Shown here in pieces: positions 2,836 to 23,673 of a stretch of 64,000 nt of DNA; the first letter of the stretch is position 1, and each line of letters begins with the position of its first letter. The notes below the pieces were generated by a model. That model searched no databases. It saw nothing but the letters and a program-made list of their open reading frames with translations, and was not told where the DNA came from. Position numbers and translations under genes: made by a program. Source of the DNA: a virus (lineage: Duplodnaviria; Caudoviricetes); IMG/VR virus record IMGVR_UViG_3300009671_000009, positions 64,001 to 128,000 of that record, one strand, 5' to 3'.

Positions 2836-5800
2836 TTGAACAGTGTGTTAACTGAAAACGCTCTTGATCTGCTTCGCAAGCGTTACTTTAGGAAGGATCT
2901 TAATGAAACAACATGGTGTCAGCTTGCTGATAGAGTAGCAACTGCCGTCGCCGATGCGGAAACAGATGAACAACTTAAGAAATATTGGAGCGAAAAATTC
3001 TACAACATGATTTACAACCTGGAGTTCCTGCCCAGTACTCCATGTCTGATGAACGCCTATAAAGAATCTCCAGGGCAGTTAAGTTCATGCTTTATCTTGG
3101 ATGTCAAAGATAATATTGAAAGTATCTACGCCGTTAAAGGCGAGTGCGCCAAGATATTCCAAAAGAATGGCGGAGCAGGCCTAAACATGTCAGCGCTCCG
3201 ACCGTCTGGTTCGCAGGTTGAAACCTCTAAAGGTTATAGCTGTGGAGTAGTAGGATTCATGGAAGAATATGATCTTACAGCAGACATTGTAACCAGGAAC
3301 AATACCCGCAAGGGTGCAATGAAAGTTGATCTAAACGACTGGCACCCTGATATCTATGAGTTCATTCATGCTAAGGATGATATTACTAAGTTTAAATGCA
3401 TGAATATCTCAGTAAGCTTATCTGATAAATTCATGCAAGCAGTCCTTGGTAATCAAACCTGGGATCTCAAGTTCCCTGACTACTCCTGGAATAAAGAGAT
3501 TTATGATAACGAATGGTGCGGCGACCTTGATCTTTGGGAAGCCAAAGGATACCCTGTCAGGGTATACAAAACCGTTCTAGCTCGCAATCTCTATTTGGAG
3601 ATCATGGAAAGCGCTTGGAAAACTGGGGAACCAGGGGTTTCTTTTAGAGATGCCATGGATAGGGATAATCCAAACCCACATCTTGGCAAAATAAAAGGTA
3701 CTAATCCTTGTGCTGAATTTACATCTCAGCCCTACAATAGCTGTAACTTGGGAAGTATCAACTTATCCAAAGCTGGCAAGACCAAGGACGAAGTACTTGC
3801 ATGGCTTAAGGTAATGGTGCCGCAAGCTGTAAGATTTTTAGACAACATGATTACAGTTAATAAACTTCCGCTTGCAAAGATCGACAAGTTTACCAAGAGT
3901 GTACGAAGTGTAGGCATGGGGGTTATGGGATTTGCTCACCTGTTGTACAATCTAGGAATTCCGTATAACTCCAAAGAAGGATACGAATTTGCCGACAGAC
4001 TATTTGGATACATTCAAGATTTAGCAACACAGACATCTATTAAACTTGCAGAAGAAAAAGGCGTCTACGACGCATGGACTGGCAGCAATTATGACAAGAG
4101 CGGGATTAAAATCCGTAACAGTAATAGACTCTCGATTGCCCCAACTGGTAGCATCAGTTTTATTGTGAATACCAGTGGAGCAATGGAACCTGTTTTTAGT
4201 TTGGTTATGACCAGACGTACCAATGAAGGATATCTATATCACCAGGTTGACCCAGTGTTGGAATCAGAATTGAAGAAACGTGGACTATATTCTGAATCTC
4301 TACTGCAGAAGATAGCAGACAACTATGGCAGATGTACAGGAATTGCAGAGATACCTGAAGACATACAGAAAGTATTTGTAACAGCCTATGATGTGTCTCC
4401 AGCAGAGCACGTTAAGATGTTGTCTGTGATTCAGAAACACGTAGACTTGTCTGCTTCTAAGTGCGTTGCCAAAGGAACATTAATCCAAACGAACAAAGGA
4501 GTTTTCCCAATTGAAAAGCTTGGCGCTGCTCAAGGAGAAGATGTTTTTGGTGAAGCTCTTTCAGATCTAATGGTTCGAGATCAAAATGGCGATTGGAAAA
4601 AAGTATTAAACCATTATTCTGGTGGCATTAAACCAACCAAGAAAGTTTATCTCGATAACGGACAGGTGTTAGAAGGAACTCATGTTCACAGGATCATGAC
4701 TCGTTCTGGATGGAAGAAACTTTCCGATCTAGCCCAGGGAGATTTGATCAAATGTCGTTTTGCTGATTATAGTCTCGGCGATAGAAAAGGAAGCTTATTA
4801 ATTCAGTTTGAACATGAACTAAACACTAGTGCTAAAGATATAAAGTTCCCAACTGCAATGAGTGAATCTTTAGCGTTGTGGCTGGGAATGTTGGCAGCAG
4901 ACGGTTCGAGTACCGAAAGTTCTGGAGCAGTAGTTCTTACTTGTGCTAATGATGAGGTAGAAAAGCTCTTTTCGTCATTAACATATAAATTATTTGGGCA
5001 ACTGACAAGTGTCGAGTATGATCGGAGAACTGATACAACAAGAGCTTGTAAGTTAACTTCTAGAAATCTTGTAAGATTTGTTCAATCTTTGATAGGAAAA
5101 GGTTGCCGCGATAAGCATATACCAGAGCAGATTTTAAATGGATCTGTGGCCGAGCAAAAAGCTTTCTTGAGAGGACTAACACTTGACGGATACGTTGCGA
5201 AGAGATCTCACAGAAATGAACTTGTAATATACGAGGGATATTCTGAAATCTTATGCGACCAAGCCTTATCGCTATGCTATTTATTAGGAATGGCTCCATA
5301 TAAAAGTACCAAAAAAGTTCCTAGTGGTAGATTGAGCAAGAAAACTTTTGGCTTACATGTTGATTGTAGCTTAATTGAACCACTTGAGACTCATAAACAA
5401 TGTAGATGTGAACCGAAAGACCGAATCGTTGATATTCCAGAGAAACTTAAGATAATTAAGGTATCTGCCAAACATCCAAAATATAATACTTTAAGAACTC
5501 TTAGGCGCAGAAGTTTCACTACAACTGTGGATTCTGTTCTTAATGATTTTGAAGTCGCATACGATATAGATGCTTACTATGTAACTGTCAAATCGGTTGA
5601 AGATGGAGTAGCCGAGGTATATGATATCGAGGTAGAAGATACTCATTCTTACTTGGTTAATGGGATCGTATCTCATAATACAGTCAATCTTCCTAACTCA
5701 GCTACTGTTCAGGACGTAATGGATGTTTACATCGACGCCTGGAAGCAAGGCATTAAAGGAATTACAATCTACCGTGATGGTTGCCGTGACAACCAAGTCC

Positions 5801-6411
5801 TCACCGTAGGAAGTAAGAAGCAAGAGGAAGATCAAAAGGTAACACTAACAACAGATGGTTATGTAGGTGTTGAACCAGCAATGGAAGTAGCCTACGGCAA
5901 GCGCATCAAAGTCAAAACAGGATGTGGACATCTCTGGTTGTTCTTCTTCGTAGATGCAAAACATAACCTAGCTGAGATCTGGTCTCAGGTATCTGGAGGA
6001 GGGTGTAAGGCTAACATTGAAAGCATGAGCAGACTCGTAAGCCTTGCGTTCAGAGCAGGCATAGATCCGAAACATATCCTTGATCAGTTGTCAAGTGCAT
6101 TTTGTAAAACATCAATGGATAATGTAGGATCGAAATCATGTGGACATGTAATAGCCAAACAGATTAGAGAGTTCCTAGATAGCAATGAAACGATCATTCC
6201 TGTTGATAAAAATTTAGTTGATGTAGTAGAAAATCTATTGTATGACATACATCCAGATCCAGAAATTGAAGAGTCTGTGGTGTTCTTCAATGATGAAGAG
6301 CTAGCAGTTGCAGCCTGTTCTACTCAACTAGATCAAGAGGAATGCGACCACGTGTTTGACGGTCAAGGTTGTCAAACGTGTATAAAATGTGGTTATAATA
6401 AGTGTAGTTAA
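2836..6411 (+). CDS. nrdJ: Class II (adenosylcobalamin) ribonucleotide reductase with intein and C-terminal TSCPD-like domain
   Basis: FLPSTP, LSSCF, GEPG, TNPCAE, CNLGSINL, IAPTGSIS, KGITIYRDG motifs and a C-terminal CxxC-G-Y-x-x-C. No R2 gene is adjacent. Confidence 0.93.
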   Translation: MNSVLTENALDLLRKRYFRKDLNETTWCQLADRVATAVADAETDEQLKKYWSEKFYNMIYNLEFLPSTPCLMNAYKESPGQLSSCFILDVKDNIESIYAVKGECAKIFQKNGGAGLNMSALRPSGSQVETSKGYSCGVVGFMEEYDLTADIVTRNNTRKGAMKVDLNDWHPDIYEFIHAKDDITKFKCMNISVSLSDKFMQAVLGNQTWDLKFPDYSWNKEIYDNEWCGDLDLWEAKGYPVRVYKTVLARNLYLEIMESAWKTGEPGVSFRDAMDRDNPNPHLGKIKGTNPCAEFTSQPYNSCNLGSINLSKAGKTKDEVLAWLKVMVPQAVRFLDNMITVNKLPLAKIDKFTKSVRSVGMGVMGFAHLLYNLGIPYNSKEGYEFADRLFGYIQDLATQTSIKLAEEKGVYDAWTGSNYDKSGIKIRNSNRLSIAPTGSISFIVNTSGAMEPVFSLVMTRRTNEGYLYHQVDPVLESELKKRGLYSESLLQKIADNYGRCTGIAEIPEDIQKVFVTAYDVSPAEHVKMLSVIQKHVDLSASKCVAKGTLIQTNKGVFPIEKLGAAQGEDVFGEALSDLMVRDQNGDWKKVLNHYSGGIKPTKKVYLDNGQVLEGTHVHRIMTRSGWKKLSDLAQGDLIKCRFADYSLGDRKGSLLIQFEHELNTSAKDIKFPTAMSESLALWLGMLAADGSSTESSGAVVLTCANDEVEKLFSSLTYKLFGQLTSVEYDRRTDTTRACKLTSRNLVRFVQSLIGKGCRDKHIPEQILNGSVAEQKAFLRGLTLDGYVAKRSHRNELVIYEGYSEILCDQALSLCYLLGMAPYKSTKKVPSGRLSKKTFGLHVDCSLIEPLETHKQCRCEPKDRIVDIPEKLKIIKVSAKHPKYNTLRTLRRRSFTTTVDSVLNDFEVAYDIDAYYVTVKSVEDGVAEVYDIEVEDTHSYLVNGIVSHNTVNLPNSATVQDVMDVYIDAWKQGIKGITIYRDGCRDNQVLTVGSKKQEEDQKVTLTTDGYVGVEPAMEVAYGKRIKVKTGCGHLWLFFFVDAKHNLAEIWSQVSGGGCKANIESMSRLVSLAFRAGIDPKHILDQLSSAFCKTSMDNVGSKSCGHVIAKQIREFLDSNETIIPVDKNLVDVVENLLYDIHPDPEIEESVVFFNDEELAVAACSTQLDQEECDHVFDGQGCQTCIKCGYNKCS
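4462..5679 (+). mobile_element. Intein (406 aa) with LAGLIDADG homing endonuclease inside nrdJ
   Basis: In-frame insertion SASK|CVAKGT...VYDIEVEDTHSYLVNGIVSHN|TVNLP. LAGLIDADG-like blocks WLGMLAADG and FLRGLTLDG. Confidence 0.95.
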
Positions 6412-16308: not shown

Positions 16309-17304
16309 GTGATTGCTATAGGTATTCATCGTAATTGCAAGCAATGCCAAATAGAATTCCTGTTTCGGGCTGCAGAACAAGCTCTAAATAATAATCAGCA
16401 AGATATGTATGCCTTCGCAATGAAGATGATTTATAAAATTGAAGGCAAGCTCGCAGAGTGGGACAAAGGAAGTGACTGCTGTGAGAACAGCAATCCAATA
16501 CATTAAAGAGAATAACATAGAGAGTATCGATGTTACTGATCCTCAAACTATGGCAATATGTTCAAGGTGTGGACGGTTTTCTGCCCTACACCAAACTTTT
16601 GTAGACAACCAAGGAACTTTCTATTGCTCCATATGCGCAAAGGAGGTTAATTCAAATGTCAAGACTACCGCTTAATTGCTTAGACGTAATTGATAGAGAG
16701 TTGCGCTTACTAAAGCCTGTAACTATGCTCGAAGGTACTAAACTTTATGTAGAATTAATCAATGGGTTTGAGCTATTCAACACAACCCACTATCATAATT
16801 ATGAAACATTCTCAGATGGATGGAGAATCACAGACGGTAAAATTGCGGCTGAAGGAGAAGATCTGCTAGACGCAGTTAGGGCATTCCGCGAAAAGTTTCT
16901 AAAAGAAAAAGACAATCCTCCAGTGTTGGTATCTGTTACAATAGGAGACACTACCATCAAAGATATGGAGATAGAAGAAGCAAGATTGCTGGCAAGAATC
17001 TTGCGGAAGAACAATATTCAGTGCGAATTCGGAAAGCAGCAGTAACATGATATTCGACTTTAATCAATTAGATACTGAGATGTGCATAATCAGTTTGCAG
17101 ATTGGCAACACAATAACACAACAAATAGAAATGCCTACAGTGTTTGCCCAATCACATTTTATGCAGCTTATTGTGCAACTCAGACAGGATCCAAGACCAA
17201 TGAAAGTGGTGTGTACCAAAGAAGAGTACACAAGAAATGGGAGAAGGTTAATAAATAGCCTAGCATTTGAGAACAAGGCATTTGTAGATTCGAACGGGAA
17301 GTGA
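16309..17304 (+). CDS. Run of four small hypothetical ORFs (16309-16506, ~16439-16675, 16656-17045, 17047-17304)
   Basis: Tightly packed, overlapping start/stop codons; no recognisable family. Confidence 0.55.
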
Positions 17305-17660
17305 TTAAGATGTTCAAAGCATGGGTTGACGATTGCAGACTAGCACCATTTGGGTGGATACATCTACCTAATTACAATATGACTATAAAGTTTATGATGA
17401 GAACTAAAGGCAATGTATCAGTCTTATCTCTTGATCACGATCTGGGCGAAAAGAAAACAGGCTATGACATTTTGTTATGGATGATCGATAATAATTGGTG
17501 GCCTGCCGATGAGATTAGGATACATACTGCTAACCCTGTTGGAAGAGACAACATGACCTATGCAATTAACAGGCACAGTCCATTTGTTATGAAAAGATTT
17601 GTTGAGTTCGATGAACACGGTAACGCGTTTTGGCGTTCCGTTAGAAAGGAAGCGGTCTAA
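17301..17660 (+). CDS. Cyclic-phosphate-processing receiver-like domain protein
   Basis: WVDDCR..P.GW, LSLDHDLG...GYD, IHTANPVG..NM. Confidence 0.8.
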   Translation: MIKMFKAWVDDCRLAPFGWIHLPNYNMTIKFMMRTKGNVSVLSLDHDLGEKKTGYDILLWMIDNNWWPADEIRIHTANPVGRDNMTYAINRHSPFVMKRFVEFDEHGNAFWRSVRKEAV

Positions 17661-18007
17661 TGGCCAAGCTTGCAAGAATAGAATACAGAGATGATACTTT
17701 TGTAAATGCTACATATCTACTGGATATTCCAAAAGATATTCCGTGGAAACTTGTAGCAACAATCGTTAATCCTATTTATGATTTTGATACACTTCCAAGA
17801 AAACTCAATGGAATGGTAAACGAACATGAGCTATCGTGGTTTGTGAATGATATCCGACGAGTGTATGTAGGGGTGTCTAACATAACAGAAGAAGGAGCTA
17901 GGCTTCCAACCACAGCCTTAACACTACAGAGAATATTCGACACTATCTGTGATAAGTTTTCTGAATTTCACAAACTGTATTTGGTTTGTGAGAAAGCATT
18001 CAAATAA
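17660..18007 (+). CDS. Hypothetical protein
   Basis: Translationally coupled ORF (TAATG). Confidence 0.6.
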   Translation: MAKLARIEYRDDTFVNATYLLDIPKDIPWKLVATIVNPIYDFDTLPRKLNGMVNEHELSWFVNDIRRVYVGVSNITEEGARLPTTALTLQRIFDTICDKFSEFHKLYLVCEKAFK

Positions 18008-18008
18008 T

Positions 18009-18135
18009 GGGGTAGATCTAGGATTCGATGGGGTTCGGTGACTGCGTGTAGATGAAAAATGCCCTTGGAGAAAACATCGATAGTAGCCATGTAGCTGGAC
18101 TTTAGACTGGGGTTCGACTCCCCACTACTCCACCA
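18009..18135 (+). ncRNA. ssrA: Minimal tmRNA-like RNA (tRNA-like domain plus helix 2 only, 127 nt)
   Basis: 5' end GGGGTAGATCTAGGATTCGATGGGG and 3' end GACTGGGGTTCGACTCCCCACTACTCCACCA match tmRNA ends. G3:U70 pair, A73, no D-stem. Confidence 0.8.
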
Positions 18136-18152
18136 AATAATAGGAGTTCAAT

Positions 18153-18365
18153 ATGTACGAATATACTATAACTATATCTTTAACTCTCACTCTTCCAGAC
18201 AACCCCACATTTGAAGACATCAGTAGAGCAGTTGAAGGCGATCCAGATAATGCCAGATATAAAATTTTTGAAAACTCAACGGAGAATACAAAGGTTGGAA
18301 GAGCAGAAACTCCAAACCCTTATTATAGGAACAAATCGGAATGTAGCCCAACGGCAGAGGCATAG
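18153..18365 (+). CDS. Hypothetical protein (3' end overlaps tRNA-Leu)
   Basis: AGGAG SD before ATG. Confidence 0.55.
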   Translation: MYEYTITISLTLTLPDNPTFEDISRAVEGDPDNARYKIFENSTENTKVGRAETPNPYYRNKSECSPTAEA

Positions 18366-18419: not shown

Positions 18420-18456
18420 TAGGCAAGCGTGAGTTCAAATCTCACTCCGCCTACCA
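18420..18456 (+). pseudogene. tRNA remnant or minihelix (T-arm, 3' acceptor strand and CCA)
   Basis: TAGGC-AAGC-GTGAG-TTCAAAT-CTCAC-TCCGCCT-ACCA; D and anticodon arms are absent. Confidence 0.7.
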
Positions 18457-18457
18457 T

Positions 18458-18532
18458 GGGCCGATAGCTGAGATGGATTAGCGCCTGCCTGAAGAGCAGG
18501 AGAGGTCGGTTCAATTCCGACTTGGCCCACCA
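18458..18532 (+). tRNA. tRNA-Phe(GAA)
   Basis: GGGCCGA/TTGGCCC, CCTGC-CTGAAGA-GCAGG, ACCA end. Confidence 0.93.
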
Positions 18533-18627
18533 TCTATGGAGATGATTTATTATTATTTGTGCAATTTGATTTTCGTTTTGACCATTGGTACGATGGTTCT
18601 AAATGTCCTGGATTTAAGGAGAAAAAA

Positions 18628-19023
18628 ATGCCAACAAAACAAGTTATTGTTATTAGAAAAGATTTAAATATGCGTAAGGGCAAAATCGCATCTCAGGCAG
18701 CACATGCTTCTATCAAAGTTTTCTTTGATAGAATGGAAAAAGCTCCTTGGGTTTTTCCCGAGCCTTGCTATCTAACAGTAGTTACCGAAGCAATGGCAGA
18801 ATGGATAAATGGATTATTCACTAAGATTTGCGTTTATGTAGAATCAGAAGAAGAACTATTGAATCTTTATAACAAAGCCAAAGAATCAGGAATTCCTTGT
18901 TCTTTAATTCAAGACGCAGGTCTTACCGAATTTGGAGGAGTTCCTACTTATACTTGTATCGCAGTAGGCCCAGACTATAATGAACGAGTAGATGAAATAA
19001 CAGGAGGTTTACCGCTCTTATGA
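18628..19023 (+). CDS. pth2: Peptidyl-tRNA hydrolase, Pth2 type
   Basis: [63 protein letters not shown] before ATG 18628. Confidence 0.93.
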
Positions 19024-19628
19024 ACTTAGTCCCGATGGTAGTTGAACAGAAAGGTCAAGGAGAACGTGCCTATGATATCTTCTCCAGGTTATTAAAAGAT
19101 CGAATTGTATTTATTAACGGCCCAATCTCTATCCAAATGAGCGACTTAATTGTAGCTCAGTTATTATTTCTTGATTCGGAAGAACAAGGGAAGCCTATTA
19201 ATGTATACATTAACTCCCCAGGCGGGGAGATTGTAGGTGGCATGGCGATTCATGACACAATGAAACTGGTAAAGTCGCCAGTTCATACAACCTGCCTAGG
19301 ACTAGCTGCATCCATGGGCGCATTTCTTTTAGCTTCAGGCGACAAAAGATTTGCAACTCCCAATGCAGAAATAATGATACATCAACCAAGTGGTGGCGCT
19401 GAGGGCCAAGCATCTGACATTCTCATTTCAGCCAAGCACATTCTTCAAAACAAAGAAAAGCTGAACAAACTATTATCAGATTATACAAATCAACCACTTG
19501 GACAAATAGAGCGCGACGTTGAGAGAGACTACTGGTTAACACCAGAGGAAGCAAAAGAGTACGGAATTATCGATGAAATTTTAATTCCTCAACCGAAGAT
19601 AGATTATAGAAAGTTTCAAATAAAATAA
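19020..19628 (+). CDS. clpP: ATP-dependent Clp protease proteolytic subunit
   Basis: [44 protein letters not shown]. Confidence 0.96.
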
Positions 19629-23598: not shown

Positions 23599-23673
23599 GG
23601 TCAAGTAGTTCAGTGGTAGAACGGAAGCCTCTAAAACTTCATGTCGTGGGTTCAATCCCCACCTTGACCACCA
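23599..23673 (+). tRNA. Amber suppressor tRNA (anticodon CTA)
   Basis: GGTCAAG TA GTTC AGTGGTA GAAC G GAAGC CTCTAAA ACTTC ATGTC GTGGG TTCAATC CCCAC CTTGACC A CCA. Anticodon at 23631-23633; C31-A39 mismatch. Confidence 0.9.

What the first reader, a model, noticed from the sequence alone, without database searches (positions are those of the whole stretch)
18009..18135. Mini-tmRNA: intact alanyl-tRNA-like domain with no mRNA-like domain
Seen: both tmRNA termini are present (GGGGTAG..GGATTCGA and GAC-TGGGG-TTCGACT-CCCCA-CTACTCC-ACCA), with G3:U70 and A73. A long helix 2 forms (GGGGTTCGG/CTGGACTTT and CTGCGTG/CATGTAG), closed by only about 39 nt. Known: bacterial tmRNAs are about 350 nt with pseudoknots and a tag ORF; tag-less versions are known from jakobid mitochondria; the TLD binds SmpB and is charged by AlaRS. 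Inference: this RNA might sequester SmpB and inhibit host trans-translation, or accept nascent chains without adding a degradation tag. A Pth2 and a ClpP are encoded within 1.5 kb. A deletion remnant is possible, but both strands of helix 2 are retained.
Basis: partly seen in the sequence, partly recalled or inferred. Interest (0 to 1): 0.82.

Follow-up and report, generated by a model that had tools for sequence, protein, structure and literature searches.

The report
Phage mini-tmRNA without tag message
A 224-kb phage carries a real 127-base miniature of the bacterial ribosome-rescue RNA (tmRNA) that keeps the alanine-accepting end but has no tag message; one such phage RNA is published, and many phages carry similar ones that probably interfere with the host's rescue-and-tagging system.

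Summary
Window 18009-18135 (+) matches Rfam tmRNA over its whole model (60.6 bits, cut-off 47), with 286 central model positions replaced by 39 nt. It has G3:U70, A73, encoded CCA, a T arm, the tmRNA D-loop analogue and helix 2, but no pseudoknots. ARAGORN calls no tag.

It is not an assembly artefact or a sporadic deletion. Three assemblies carry it unchanged. A strain about 2% diverged keeps the length, and its two changes preserve base pairs. A distant phage (L069) has a mini-tmRNA in the same position upstream of Pth2.

Pattern scans of IMG/VR gave 104 distinct phage mini-tmRNAs of 67-140 nt. All have G3:U70 and A73, although the patterns did not require them. Eight of them, including this one, show strong covariation. 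Neither this phage nor 32 other mini-bearing records encode SmpB.

The kind is already published once (mycobacteriophage DS6A, 83 nt), and this scan has found it repeatedly on other DNA. My best reading is a host-charged, host-SmpB-dependent competitor of tmRNA that prevents tagging. Function is untested. Interest is moderate: a new variant of a known kind.

The parts
18009..18015 (+). Acceptor stem, 5' strand (GGGGTAG). G3 pairs with U70 (18129).
   Evidence: Sequence; Rfam alignment.
18016..18028 (+). D-loop analogue with the conserved GGATTCGA. G19 and A20 form the tandem G.A pairs with A98 and G97.
   Evidence: Rfam alignment; column conservation in A5.
18029..18038 (+). Helix 2, proximal 5' strand (positions 21-30). 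Pairs with 18095-18104.
   Evidence: MFE fold; all 10 pairs of this helix covary in the 8-sequence alignment. A strain variant, A>G at 18099, turns U-A into U-G.
18042..18048 (+). Helix 2, distal 5' strand (CTGCGTG). Pairs with CATGTAG at 18088-18094.
   Evidence: MFE fold. A strain variant, A>G at 18089, turns U-A into U-G.
18049..18087 (+). 39-nt cap of helix 2. It has a predicted small hairpin (GATG 18051-18054 with CATC 18075-18078) whose loop starts AAAAATGCC. It stands in place of PK1, the tag frame and PK2-4.
   Evidence: The motif is shared with minis G033, L186, L149, L165, L130 and L069. My model R1 did not align this part.
18088..18104 (+). Helix 2, 3' strands. CATGTAG is the conserved tmRNA helix-2 motif; CTGGACTTTA follows it.
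18108..18124 (+). T arm: stem TGGGG/CCCCA, loop TTCGACT.
18125..18135 (+). Acceptor 3' strand (CTACTCC), discriminator A73 (18132) and encoded CCA (18133-18135).
   Evidence: In a strain about 2% diverged, similarity ends right after 18132, so that copy has no encoded CCA.
17660..18007 (+). Orphan 115-aa ORF whose stop codon lies 1 nt before the RNA gene.
   Evidence: Its only hit among 5.8 billion proteins is itself.
18559..19023 (+). Pth2-type peptidyl-tRNA hydrolase, 0.4 kb downstream. It is the only Pth2 in the genome.
   Evidence: PF01981, 1e-33. The order mini-tmRNA, then Pth2, then tRNA-Leu(tag) recurs in L069.
19020..19628 (+). ClpP protease subunit, overlapping the end of Pth2.
   Evidence: PF00574, 4.5e-73.

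Best explanation
This is a working phage gene for a CDS-less mini-tmRNA. Shown: it is a tmRNA tRNA-like domain plus helix 2 with no pseudoknots, it is conserved, and the phage has no SmpB. Inferred: it is transcribed with the surrounding tRNA/ORF array on the + strand and cut out by the tRNA-processing enzymes. Where CCA is not encoded, the phage's own CCA-adding-type enzyme or the host's could add it. Host AlaRS charges it with alanine through G3:U70 and A73, and host SmpB binds it. It then competes with the host's full-length tmRNA for SmpB and for stalled ribosomes. Because it has no usable tag message, the net result is that stalled chains are not given a degradation tag. I favour the version in which the charged RNA enters the ribosome and receives the chain, after which the peptidyl-RNA is released and hydrolysed, possibly by the neighbouring Pth2. 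I favour this over a passive sponge because alanine identity is strictly conserved in this class.
For: Rfam tmRNA hit at 60.6 bits against a cut-off of 47, end to end. All tRNA-like-domain elements are present. The gene is identical in three assemblies. A strain about 2% diverged keeps the length, and its two substitutions both turn U-A into U-G in helix 2. L069 has a 108-nt mini-tmRNA 0.5 kb upstream of Pth2 and tRNA-Leu(tag), the same order as here. In 8 minis including this one, 96.7% of cells pair and 22 of 28 pairs have changes on both sides; the covariation score is 0.773 against 0.185 for shuffles (0 of 500 reach it) and at most 0.173 for slid partners. In 104 distinct phage minis, pair 3:70 is G:U in 104 and the discriminator is A in 104, though the search patterns left the 3' strand free. 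SmpB is absent from this complete genome and from 32 other mini-bearing records. A CCA-adding-type enzyme is encoded in the genome. Contigs of one metatranscriptome library cover 17743-18284 at 100% identity; this is weak evidence. Literature: DS6A's TLD-only tmRNA, and a similar molecule reported to inhibit tmRNA in E. coli, perhaps by titrating SmpB (PMC4131195, PMC11915505).
Against: Nothing shows a mature RNA, charging, SmpB binding or an effect on tagging. The RNA-library contigs have the same depth as neighbouring ORFs and could derive from DNA. The host is unknown, and no close full-length parent tmRNA was found. According to PMC4131195, the published inhibition did not need charging, which fits a sponge as well. 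The link to Pth2 may only reflect the clustering of translation genes in tRNA arrays and shared ancestry: only 2 of 24 records found without reference to Pth2 carry it. The covariation alignment was fitted to the model, which favours the structure.
Confidence: 0.45

Rival explanations
1. Passive SmpB sponge. The RNA only binds and sequesters host SmpB (and perhaps AlaRS or EF-Tu) and never takes part in peptidyl transfer, which shuts down host trans-translation.
For: [quoted passage not shown] There is no phage SmpB here or in 32 other mini-bearing records. The base of helix 2 and the D-loop analogue are kept.
Against: G3:U70 and A73 are invariant in 104 of 104 distinct minis. A pure sponge would not obviously need them.
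Confidence: 0.25
2. A very small but complete tmRNA. GCC at 18061-18063, preceded by an A-rich run, would be a resume codon opening a 14-codon frame (ALGENIDSSHVAGL) that ends at TAG 18103-18105. Tagged chains might then go to the phage ClpP.
For: The A-rich run plus GCC resembles the Rfam pre-resume consensus, and six other minis share it. The frame exists, and ClpP lies 0.9 kb downstream.
Against: ARAGORN finds no tag. There is no PK1, and the frame runs into the 3' strand of helix 2, where its stop lies. Of about 10 minis with the motif, only 4 have an in-frame stop before the T arm, about what chance gives. Loop lengths among homologues differ by amounts that are not multiples of 3. One of the two strain changes is non-synonymous in this frame. 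The loop is closed at both ends, so it is hard to thread as a message (inference).
Confidence: 0.08
3. A decaying remnant of a full-length phage tmRNA, with no function.
For: Some distant Pth2-carrying phages have full-length tmRNAs 1-5 kb from Pth2 (G029, G003, G035), so an internal deletion is the likely origin. The substitution rate in the RNA (2 in 127) is close to that of the upstream ORF.
Against: Every tRNA-like-domain element is intact. Both strain substitutions preserve pairing. Same-architecture minis sit in the same position in L069, and near Pth2 in L186 and L165. Covariation is strong and alanine identity is invariant across the class. One phage (G035) keeps both a full tmRNA and an 81-nt mini.
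Confidence: 0.07
4. A tRNA-shaped RNA that acts outside trans-translation. It could be an RNase P processing signal that separates the flanking messages, or a decoy for a host defence that senses or cuts tRNA or tmRNA.
For: It lies 1 nt after one ORF and 17 nt before the next, with no promoter or terminator signal above background. The same array holds a second acceptor/T-arm minihelix at about 18420-18456. Earlier notes from this scan describe other non-decoding tRNA look-alikes near phage Pth2 genes; these are leads only.
Against: A processing signal or generic decoy would not need tmRNA-specific features (the GGATTCGA loop, the G.A pairs, helix 2 with CATGTAG) or strict alanine identity.
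Confidence: 0.12

Closest known systems
'TLD-only' (CDS-less) tmRNA of Mycobacterium phage DS6A (tmRNA Website tmID 11587; Hudson, Lau and Williams 2014, PMC4131195; PMC11915505)
   Same: Both are phage-encoded, with an intact alanine-type tRNA-like domain, a stub of helix 2, no pseudoknots and no tag frame. I located the DS6A RNA at JN698994 28478-28560 (83 nt). It scores 40.8 bits on my model R1, and the window's RNA scores 41.1.
   Different: This RNA is 127 nt against 83. Its helix 2 is about 17 bp in two segments and keeps the conserved CATGTAG motif, and its 39-nt cap carries an A-rich run plus GCC. It sits in the tRNA array of a 224-kb phage next to Pth2 and ClpP, whereas DS6A is a 60.6-kb temperate mycobacteriophage. 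The two share no sequence outside the universal tRNA-like domain.
Standard bacterial and phage tmRNA (Rfam RF00023; phage examples of 349-404 nt found here in G029, G013, G035, G043, G046 and G003)
   Same: Both share the tRNA-like domain, the G.A pairs at the base of helix 2, helix 2 with CATGTAG, and dependence on SmpB supplied in trans. In three phages the full-length gene also lies within 5 kb of Pth2.
   Different: This RNA lacks PK1-PK4, helix 5 and a supported tag frame. 286 of the 374 model positions are replaced by 39 nt.
Tag-less tmRNAs of jakobid mitochondria and some plastids (PMC11915505; my own knowledge for jakobids)
   Same: They are also reduced to the alanine-accepting tRNA-like part, without a message.
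   Different: Those are organellar, much shorter (about 65 bp in the plastid cases) and lack a long helix 2. They work with a nucleus-encoded SmpB as the organelle's own system, not as a virus-borne competitor.
Minihelix-Ala / acceptor-T-arm minihelices (AlaRS model substrates; my own knowledge)
   Same: Charging depends on G3:U70 in an acceptor stem stacked on a T arm. A natural 37-nt example turned up in a related phage (L103:1501-1537).
   Different: The window's RNA also has the tmRNA D-loop analogue and helix 2, the parts that SmpB contacts.

Membership tests
tmRNA (Rfam RF00023) | Score at or above the curated gathering threshold over the full model | tested here: met
   60.6 bits against 47, model positions 1-374, E 3e-21.
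tmRNA (Rfam RF00023) | Alanine identity: G3:U70, A73, 3' CCA | tested here: met
   Read from the sequence. Invariant in 104 of 104 phage minis.
tmRNA (Rfam RF00023) | T arm, plus a D-loop analogue without a D stem or anticodon arm; G.A pairs at the base of helix 2 | tested here: met
   Rfam alignment. ARAGORN calls no tRNA here. U21-A96 stands in place of the consensus C-G.
tmRNA (Rfam RF00023) | Pseudoknots PK1-PK4 | tested here: not met
   286 model positions are replaced by 39 nt, and the fold shows only a small hairpin there.
tmRNA (Rfam RF00023) | Tag reading frame with a resume codon and stop codon(s) | tested here: inconclusive
   A 14-codon frame from GCC to TAG exists, but ARAGORN finds no tag, and neither the frame nor the stop is conserved among minis that share the motif.
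tmRNA (Rfam RF00023) | Charged by AlaRS, bound by SmpB, active in trans-translation | not testable with these tools
   Needs biochemistry. SmpB is not encoded by the phage.
CDS-less 'TLD-only' phage tmRNA (DS6A type) | Phage-encoded; intact tRNA-like domain; central domain reduced to a short stem-loop; no tag | tested here: met
   DS6A's RNA and this one score alike on model R1.
CDS-less 'TLD-only' phage tmRNA (DS6A type) | Inhibits endogenous tmRNA when expressed | not testable with these tools
   Reported in PMC4131195 and PMC11915505 (citing Mao et al. 2009) for a similar molecule and for the DS6A form. Not tested for this RNA.
Core 107-110-nt phage mini-tmRNA subfamily (G033, L149, L186, L165, L069; my model R1) | Inner hairpin GC-GA-CG ... 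CG-AAA-GC capping a 10-bp helix 2 | tested here: not met
   R1 aligns only the tRNA-like domain and the 10-bp helix 2 of the window's RNA (41.1 bits against 80-116 for members) and skips the inner part. Only the GA(U/C)GA(A/U)AAAUGCC stretch resembles G033. I read it as a relative by position (synteny with L069), not a member by structure.
tRNA-Ala | Cloverleaf with D arm and anticodon arm | tested here: not met
   No ARAGORN tRNA call and no Rfam tRNA hit at this place.
Permuted (two-piece) tmRNA (Rfam RF04321) | Acceptor piece encoded ahead of the coding piece | tested here: not met
   The 5' and 3' ends are in standard order and no RF04321 hit appears in the window. For contrast, Stenotrophomonas phage Yut2 gives 119 bits on RF04321.

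The most novel reading that the evidence does not exclude
The mini-tmRNA and the neighbouring Pth2 form a phage-encoded, tag-free ribosome-rescue pathway. Ala-mini-tmRNA with host SmpB takes the nascent chain from a stalled ribosome. The peptidyl-mini-tmRNA then leaves the ribosome for want of a message, and Pth2 hydrolyses it. Ribosomes are freed, and phage proteins escape the host's degradation tag.
Probability: 0.2. Interest if true: 0.8.

Novelty: new variant of a known kind. Interest (0 to 1): 0.5.

Why it matters
Trans-translation is the main ribosome-rescue and protein-tagging system of bacteria, and it is a drug target. The papers I could search describe a single phage RNA of this sort (DS6A), and the usual phage annotation tool, ARAGORN, does not call this one. 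This example shows a longer architecture, a conserved position beside a peptidyl-tRNA hydrolase gene, and membership of a class of at least a hundred distinct phage RNAs in which alanine identity never varies. That makes two questions directly testable with a natural molecule. Do phages switch off or re-route host tagging? And how much of tmRNA is needed to engage SmpB and the ribosome? This scan has reached the same general conclusion several times on other DNA, so the value of this case lies in the variant and its gene neighbourhood, not in a first discovery.

Tried and rejected
1. Close relatives by DNA. Distant blastn against 50,697 phage records found only tRNA matches. The upstream ORF has no relative in IMG/VR or among 5.8 billion proteins. 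PolIII alpha found one 8-kb fragment.

2. A strict same-length pattern in IMG/VR gave 0 hits. My first regex on 80 Pth2 loci found nothing, but it was too strict: model R1 later found L069.

3. Host or parent tmRNA. A scan of 185,579 species genomes with the 3' end gave 78 hits, mostly full-length Lachnospiraceae tmRNAs, Cardinium and tRNAs. None resembles helix 2, so I name no host and no parent.

4. A metagenome scan for GGATTCGA ... CATGTAG ... T arm found no RNA built like the window's.

5. Tag frame: rejected as unsupported (see rivals).

6. Stenotrophomonas phage 'tmRNA' hits turned out to be ordinary permuted two-piece tmRNAs, not minis.

7. Pth2 as a general partner of minis: it is present in only 2 of 24 records found without reference to Pth2, so the link holds at most for this phage group.

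8. Promoter and terminator scan: counts equal the shuffles, so there is no dedicated signal.

9. Runs with small word shares, and parts of the stretch without cover, say nothing about habitat or absence.

10. The 45-48-nt RF00023 hits in other Pth2 phages (L102, L109-L112, L118) are 3' tmRNA fragments or T arms, not minis.

Full report
**What is there.** The window is bases 64001-128000 of a 224,466-bp IMG/VR virus record with direct terminal repeats, rated complete. Rfam's tmRNA model (RF00023) hits window 18009-18135 on the + strand at 60.6 bits (gathering score 47, E 3e-21). The match spans the whole model, but 286 central positions are replaced by 39 nt. It is the only hit above the cut-off in the genome.

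Read from the sequence, the RNA has:
- a 7-bp acceptor stem with G3:U70;
- discriminator A73 (18132) and an encoded CCA (18133-18135);
- a T arm with loop TTCGACT;
- the tmRNA D-loop analogue GGATTCGA;
- the tandem G.A pairs at the base of helix 2, followed by U21-A96 where the consensus has C-G;
- a two-segment helix 2 (positions 22-30 with 87-95, and 34-40 with 80-86), whose distal 3' strand is the conserved CATGTAG motif.

The MFE fold reproduces these helices. ARAGORN tRNAs in the window but no tmRNA. The folding energy is no better than that of shuffles (z = 0.70).

**Context.** The gene lies in a + strand array of small ORFs and tRNAs (12-27 kb of the window). It starts 1 nt after the stop codon of an orphan 115-aa ORF and ends 17 nt before the next ORF.
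- Upstream is a cREC_REC-domain protein.
- Downstream come tRNA-Leu(taa), a minihelix-like element, tRNA-Phe, Pth2 (18559-19023), ClpP (19020-19628) and tRNA-Leu(tag).
- Promoter-like and terminator-like sites are no more frequent than in shuffles, so the RNA is most likely cut out of a long transcript.
- The complete genome has no SmpB, one Pth2, a CCA-adding-type nucleotidyltransferase and no RtcB.
- The nearest cultured phages by PolIII alpha are Moorella phage MTATph1 (39%) and Bacillus jumbo phages (about 36%). Runs that hold the stretch come from bioreactors and sludge. A Bacillota-type host is likely but not shown.

**Artefact or sporadic deletion?** Three assemblies (IMG/VR, ENA ERZ795066 and JGI 3300019237) carry the gene and its flanks without a single difference. 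They may not all come from different samples.

An activated-sludge run holds a strain with 18 differences over 17300-18132. Its mini-tmRNA has the same length. Its only internal changes, A>G at 18089 and at 18099, both turn a U-A pair of helix 2 into U-G. Similarity ends exactly after the discriminator, so that copy has a different downstream neighbour and no encoded CCA.

Contigs of one metatranscriptome library cover 17743-18027 and 18026-18284 at 100% identity, at depths like those of the ORFs beside them. This shows presence in an RNA library, not a mature RNA.

**Relatives.** No close relative of the phage is on hand, so I used Pth2 to collect large phages (80 loci). I then searched 47 of their whole records with RF00023:
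- Six carry full-length tmRNAs (349-404 nt).
- One carries a 278-nt reduced form.
- Two carry minis: G033 (109 nt, 52 bits) and G035 (81 nt, 55 bits).
- G035 also has a full 349-nt tmRNA.

A covariance model (R1) built from four 107-110-nt minis found a further one that Rfam had missed. It is at L069:3371-3478 (79.9 bits), 0.5 kb upstream of that phage's Pth2 (52% identical to the window's), which is followed by tRNA-Leu(tag). The window has the same order. In L186 and L165, Pth2 lies 3.5 and 4.4 kb from the mini, in the same tRNA array.

Full-length tmRNAs also lie 1.1-4.7 kb from Pth2 in G035, G029 and G003 (coordinates). The simplest history is a full-length phage tmRNA near Pth2 that was cut down and then kept in several lineages.

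**The class.** They gave 104 distinct sequences in which acceptor pairs 1, 2 and 4-7 form.
- Lengths run from 67 to 140 nt. 72 fall in the 80-89-nt bin (most often 82 nt) and 22 are 100 nt or longer.
- Pair 3:70 is G:U in 104 of 104 and the discriminator is A in 104 of 104, although the patterns left the 3' strand free. Pairs 5-7 vary freely.
- In an alignment of eight minis including the window's, 96.7% of cells pair and 22 of 28 pairs change on both sides. The covariation score is 0.773, against 0.185 for shuffles (0 of 500 reach it) and at most 0.173 for slid partners. All 10 pairs of helix 2 covary. The alignment was fitted to the model, which favours the structure.
- None of 32 mini-bearing records encodes SmpB.

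These are therefore selected, alanine-type, SmpB-less RNAs, not debris.

**The 39-nt cap and the tag question.** The cap holds a small predicted hairpin (GATG with CATC) whose loop starts AAAAATGCC. Similar A-rich runs followed by GCC or GCA sit in the apical loops of G033, L186, L149, L165, L130 and L069. They resemble either the stretch before the resume codon or the 3' side of PK1 in standard tmRNA.

From GCC, a 14-codon frame runs to a TAG inside the 3' strand of helix 2. I do not think it is a tag, for these reasons:
- ARAGORN finds none.
- Only 4 of about 10 motif-bearing minis have an in-frame stop, about what chance gives.
- Loop lengths among homologues differ by amounts that are not multiples of three.
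- One of the two strain changes is non-synonymous in this frame.
- R1 does not align this part of the window's RNA.

What the shared motif does is unexplained.

**Mechanism.** Shown: a tmRNA tRNA-like domain with helix 2, no pseudoknots, no supported tag, no phage SmpB, conservation and covariation.

Inferred from established knowledge of tmRNA: processing by RNase P, charging by AlaRS through G3:U70 and A73, and SmpB binding to the tRNA-like domain. The RNA would then compete with host tmRNA. Because alanine identity never varies, I favour a charged RNA that enters stalled ribosomes and takes the chain without adding a tag, with release and hydrolysis perhaps helped by Pth2 (confidence 0.45). 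A passive SmpB sponge comes second (0.25); that is the published idea for DS6A (PMC4131195). A remnant (0.07), a tiny true tag (0.08) and a role outside trans-translation (0.12) remain possible.

**Comparison with what is known.** The papers I could search describe one phage RNA of this kind, DS6A's 'TLD only' tmRNA (PMC4131195, PMC11915505). I located it at JN698994 28478-28560 (83 nt). It scores 40.8 bits on R1, and the window's RNA scores 41.1. Surveys of phage tmRNAs relied on ARAGORN (PMC7162821, PMC9004378), which does not call the window's RNA. The window's RNA differs from DS6A's in its long two-part helix 2, in its cap motif, and in sitting beside Pth2 and ClpP in a jumbo-phage tRNA array.

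Earlier follow-ups of this same scan reached the same general conclusion on other phages. Those notes are leads, not evidence. Taken together, this is a new variant of a known kind, of moderate interest.

Noticed in passing
window 18420-18456: A roughly 37-nt acceptor/T-arm minihelix lies between tRNA-Leu(taa) and tRNA-Phe: 5-bp stem TAGGC/GCCTA, T arm GTGAG/CTCAC, ending in CCA. It has no G3:U70. It may be a tRNA 3' remnant or a separate mini tRNA-like RNA just upstream of Pth2.
   Followed up: partly
window 23599-23673: A tRNA with anticodon CTA (ARAGORN labels it tRNA-Pyl; 68.5 bits on Rfam tRNA). That makes it an amber-reading tRNA in a genome whose ORFs in this region look normal under table 11.
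   Followed up: no
L103:1501-1537 (G001, the phage with the most similar Pth2 in the list, 63%): A 37-nt natural 'minihelix-Ala': 7-bp acceptor GGGCACG/CGTGTCC with G3:U70, a T arm, and A73. It has no D-loop analogue and no helix 2.
   Followed up: partly
G035 (L093:1501-1849 minus strand, and L121:1501-1581): One complete 115-kb phage carries both a full 349-nt tmRNA (1.1 kb from its Pth2) and an 81-nt mini-tmRNA about 83 kb away. This argues that the two forms do different jobs.
   Followed up: partly
Most share a layout of helix 2 (7-8 bp) capped by a small CCGC/GCGG-type hairpin.
   Followed up: partly
L432:6088-6222 (metagenome contig PPYE01046245.1, 100 kb): An E. coli-type tmRNA with a clean internal deletion (135 nt: tRNA-like domain, helix 2 and PK1, then straight to AAGCATGTAG). 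It could be natural, a construct or an assembly error.
   Followed up: no
L425, L431, L433, L434, L438 and others (metagenome contigs): Sequences with GGATTCGA, a helix-2-like region, CTAAACATGTAG, a T arm and a CGCCTCC acceptor 3' strand, but no matching acceptor 5' strand 8-17 nt upstream of GGATTCGA. I could not place them among standard, permuted or mini forms.
   Followed up: no
L300 (Patescibacteria MAG contig), 72 nt: A tRNA-like gene whose ends are nearly identical to the window's mini-tmRNA (GGGGTAGATCT ... GGGGTTCGATTCCCCACTACTCCACCA), but with a short anticodon-arm-like hairpin between them.
   Followed up: no
window 18493-19023: The Pth2 reading frame is open back into tRNA-Phe (the stop-to-stop frame starts at 18493). 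Start calls differ: GTG at 18559 here, and the equivalent of 18628 in the ENA gene call.
   Followed up: no
L424 (Stenotrophomonas phage Yut2, PV130723.1 67.9-68.4 kb): The GenBank 'tmRNA' feature overlaps two tRNA features. Rfam reads the region as a permuted two-piece tmRNA (RF04321, 119 bits).
   Followed up: partly
window 2836-6411: The ribonucleotide reductase large subunit is interrupted by an intein with a LAGLIDADG domain (Pfam Intein_splicing, LAGLIDADG_3).
   Followed up: no
window 17301-17660: A cREC_REC (cyclic-phosphate-processing receiver) domain protein (PF20274, 2e-22) lies two genes upstream of the mini-tmRNA, yet the genome has no RtcB.
   Followed up: no
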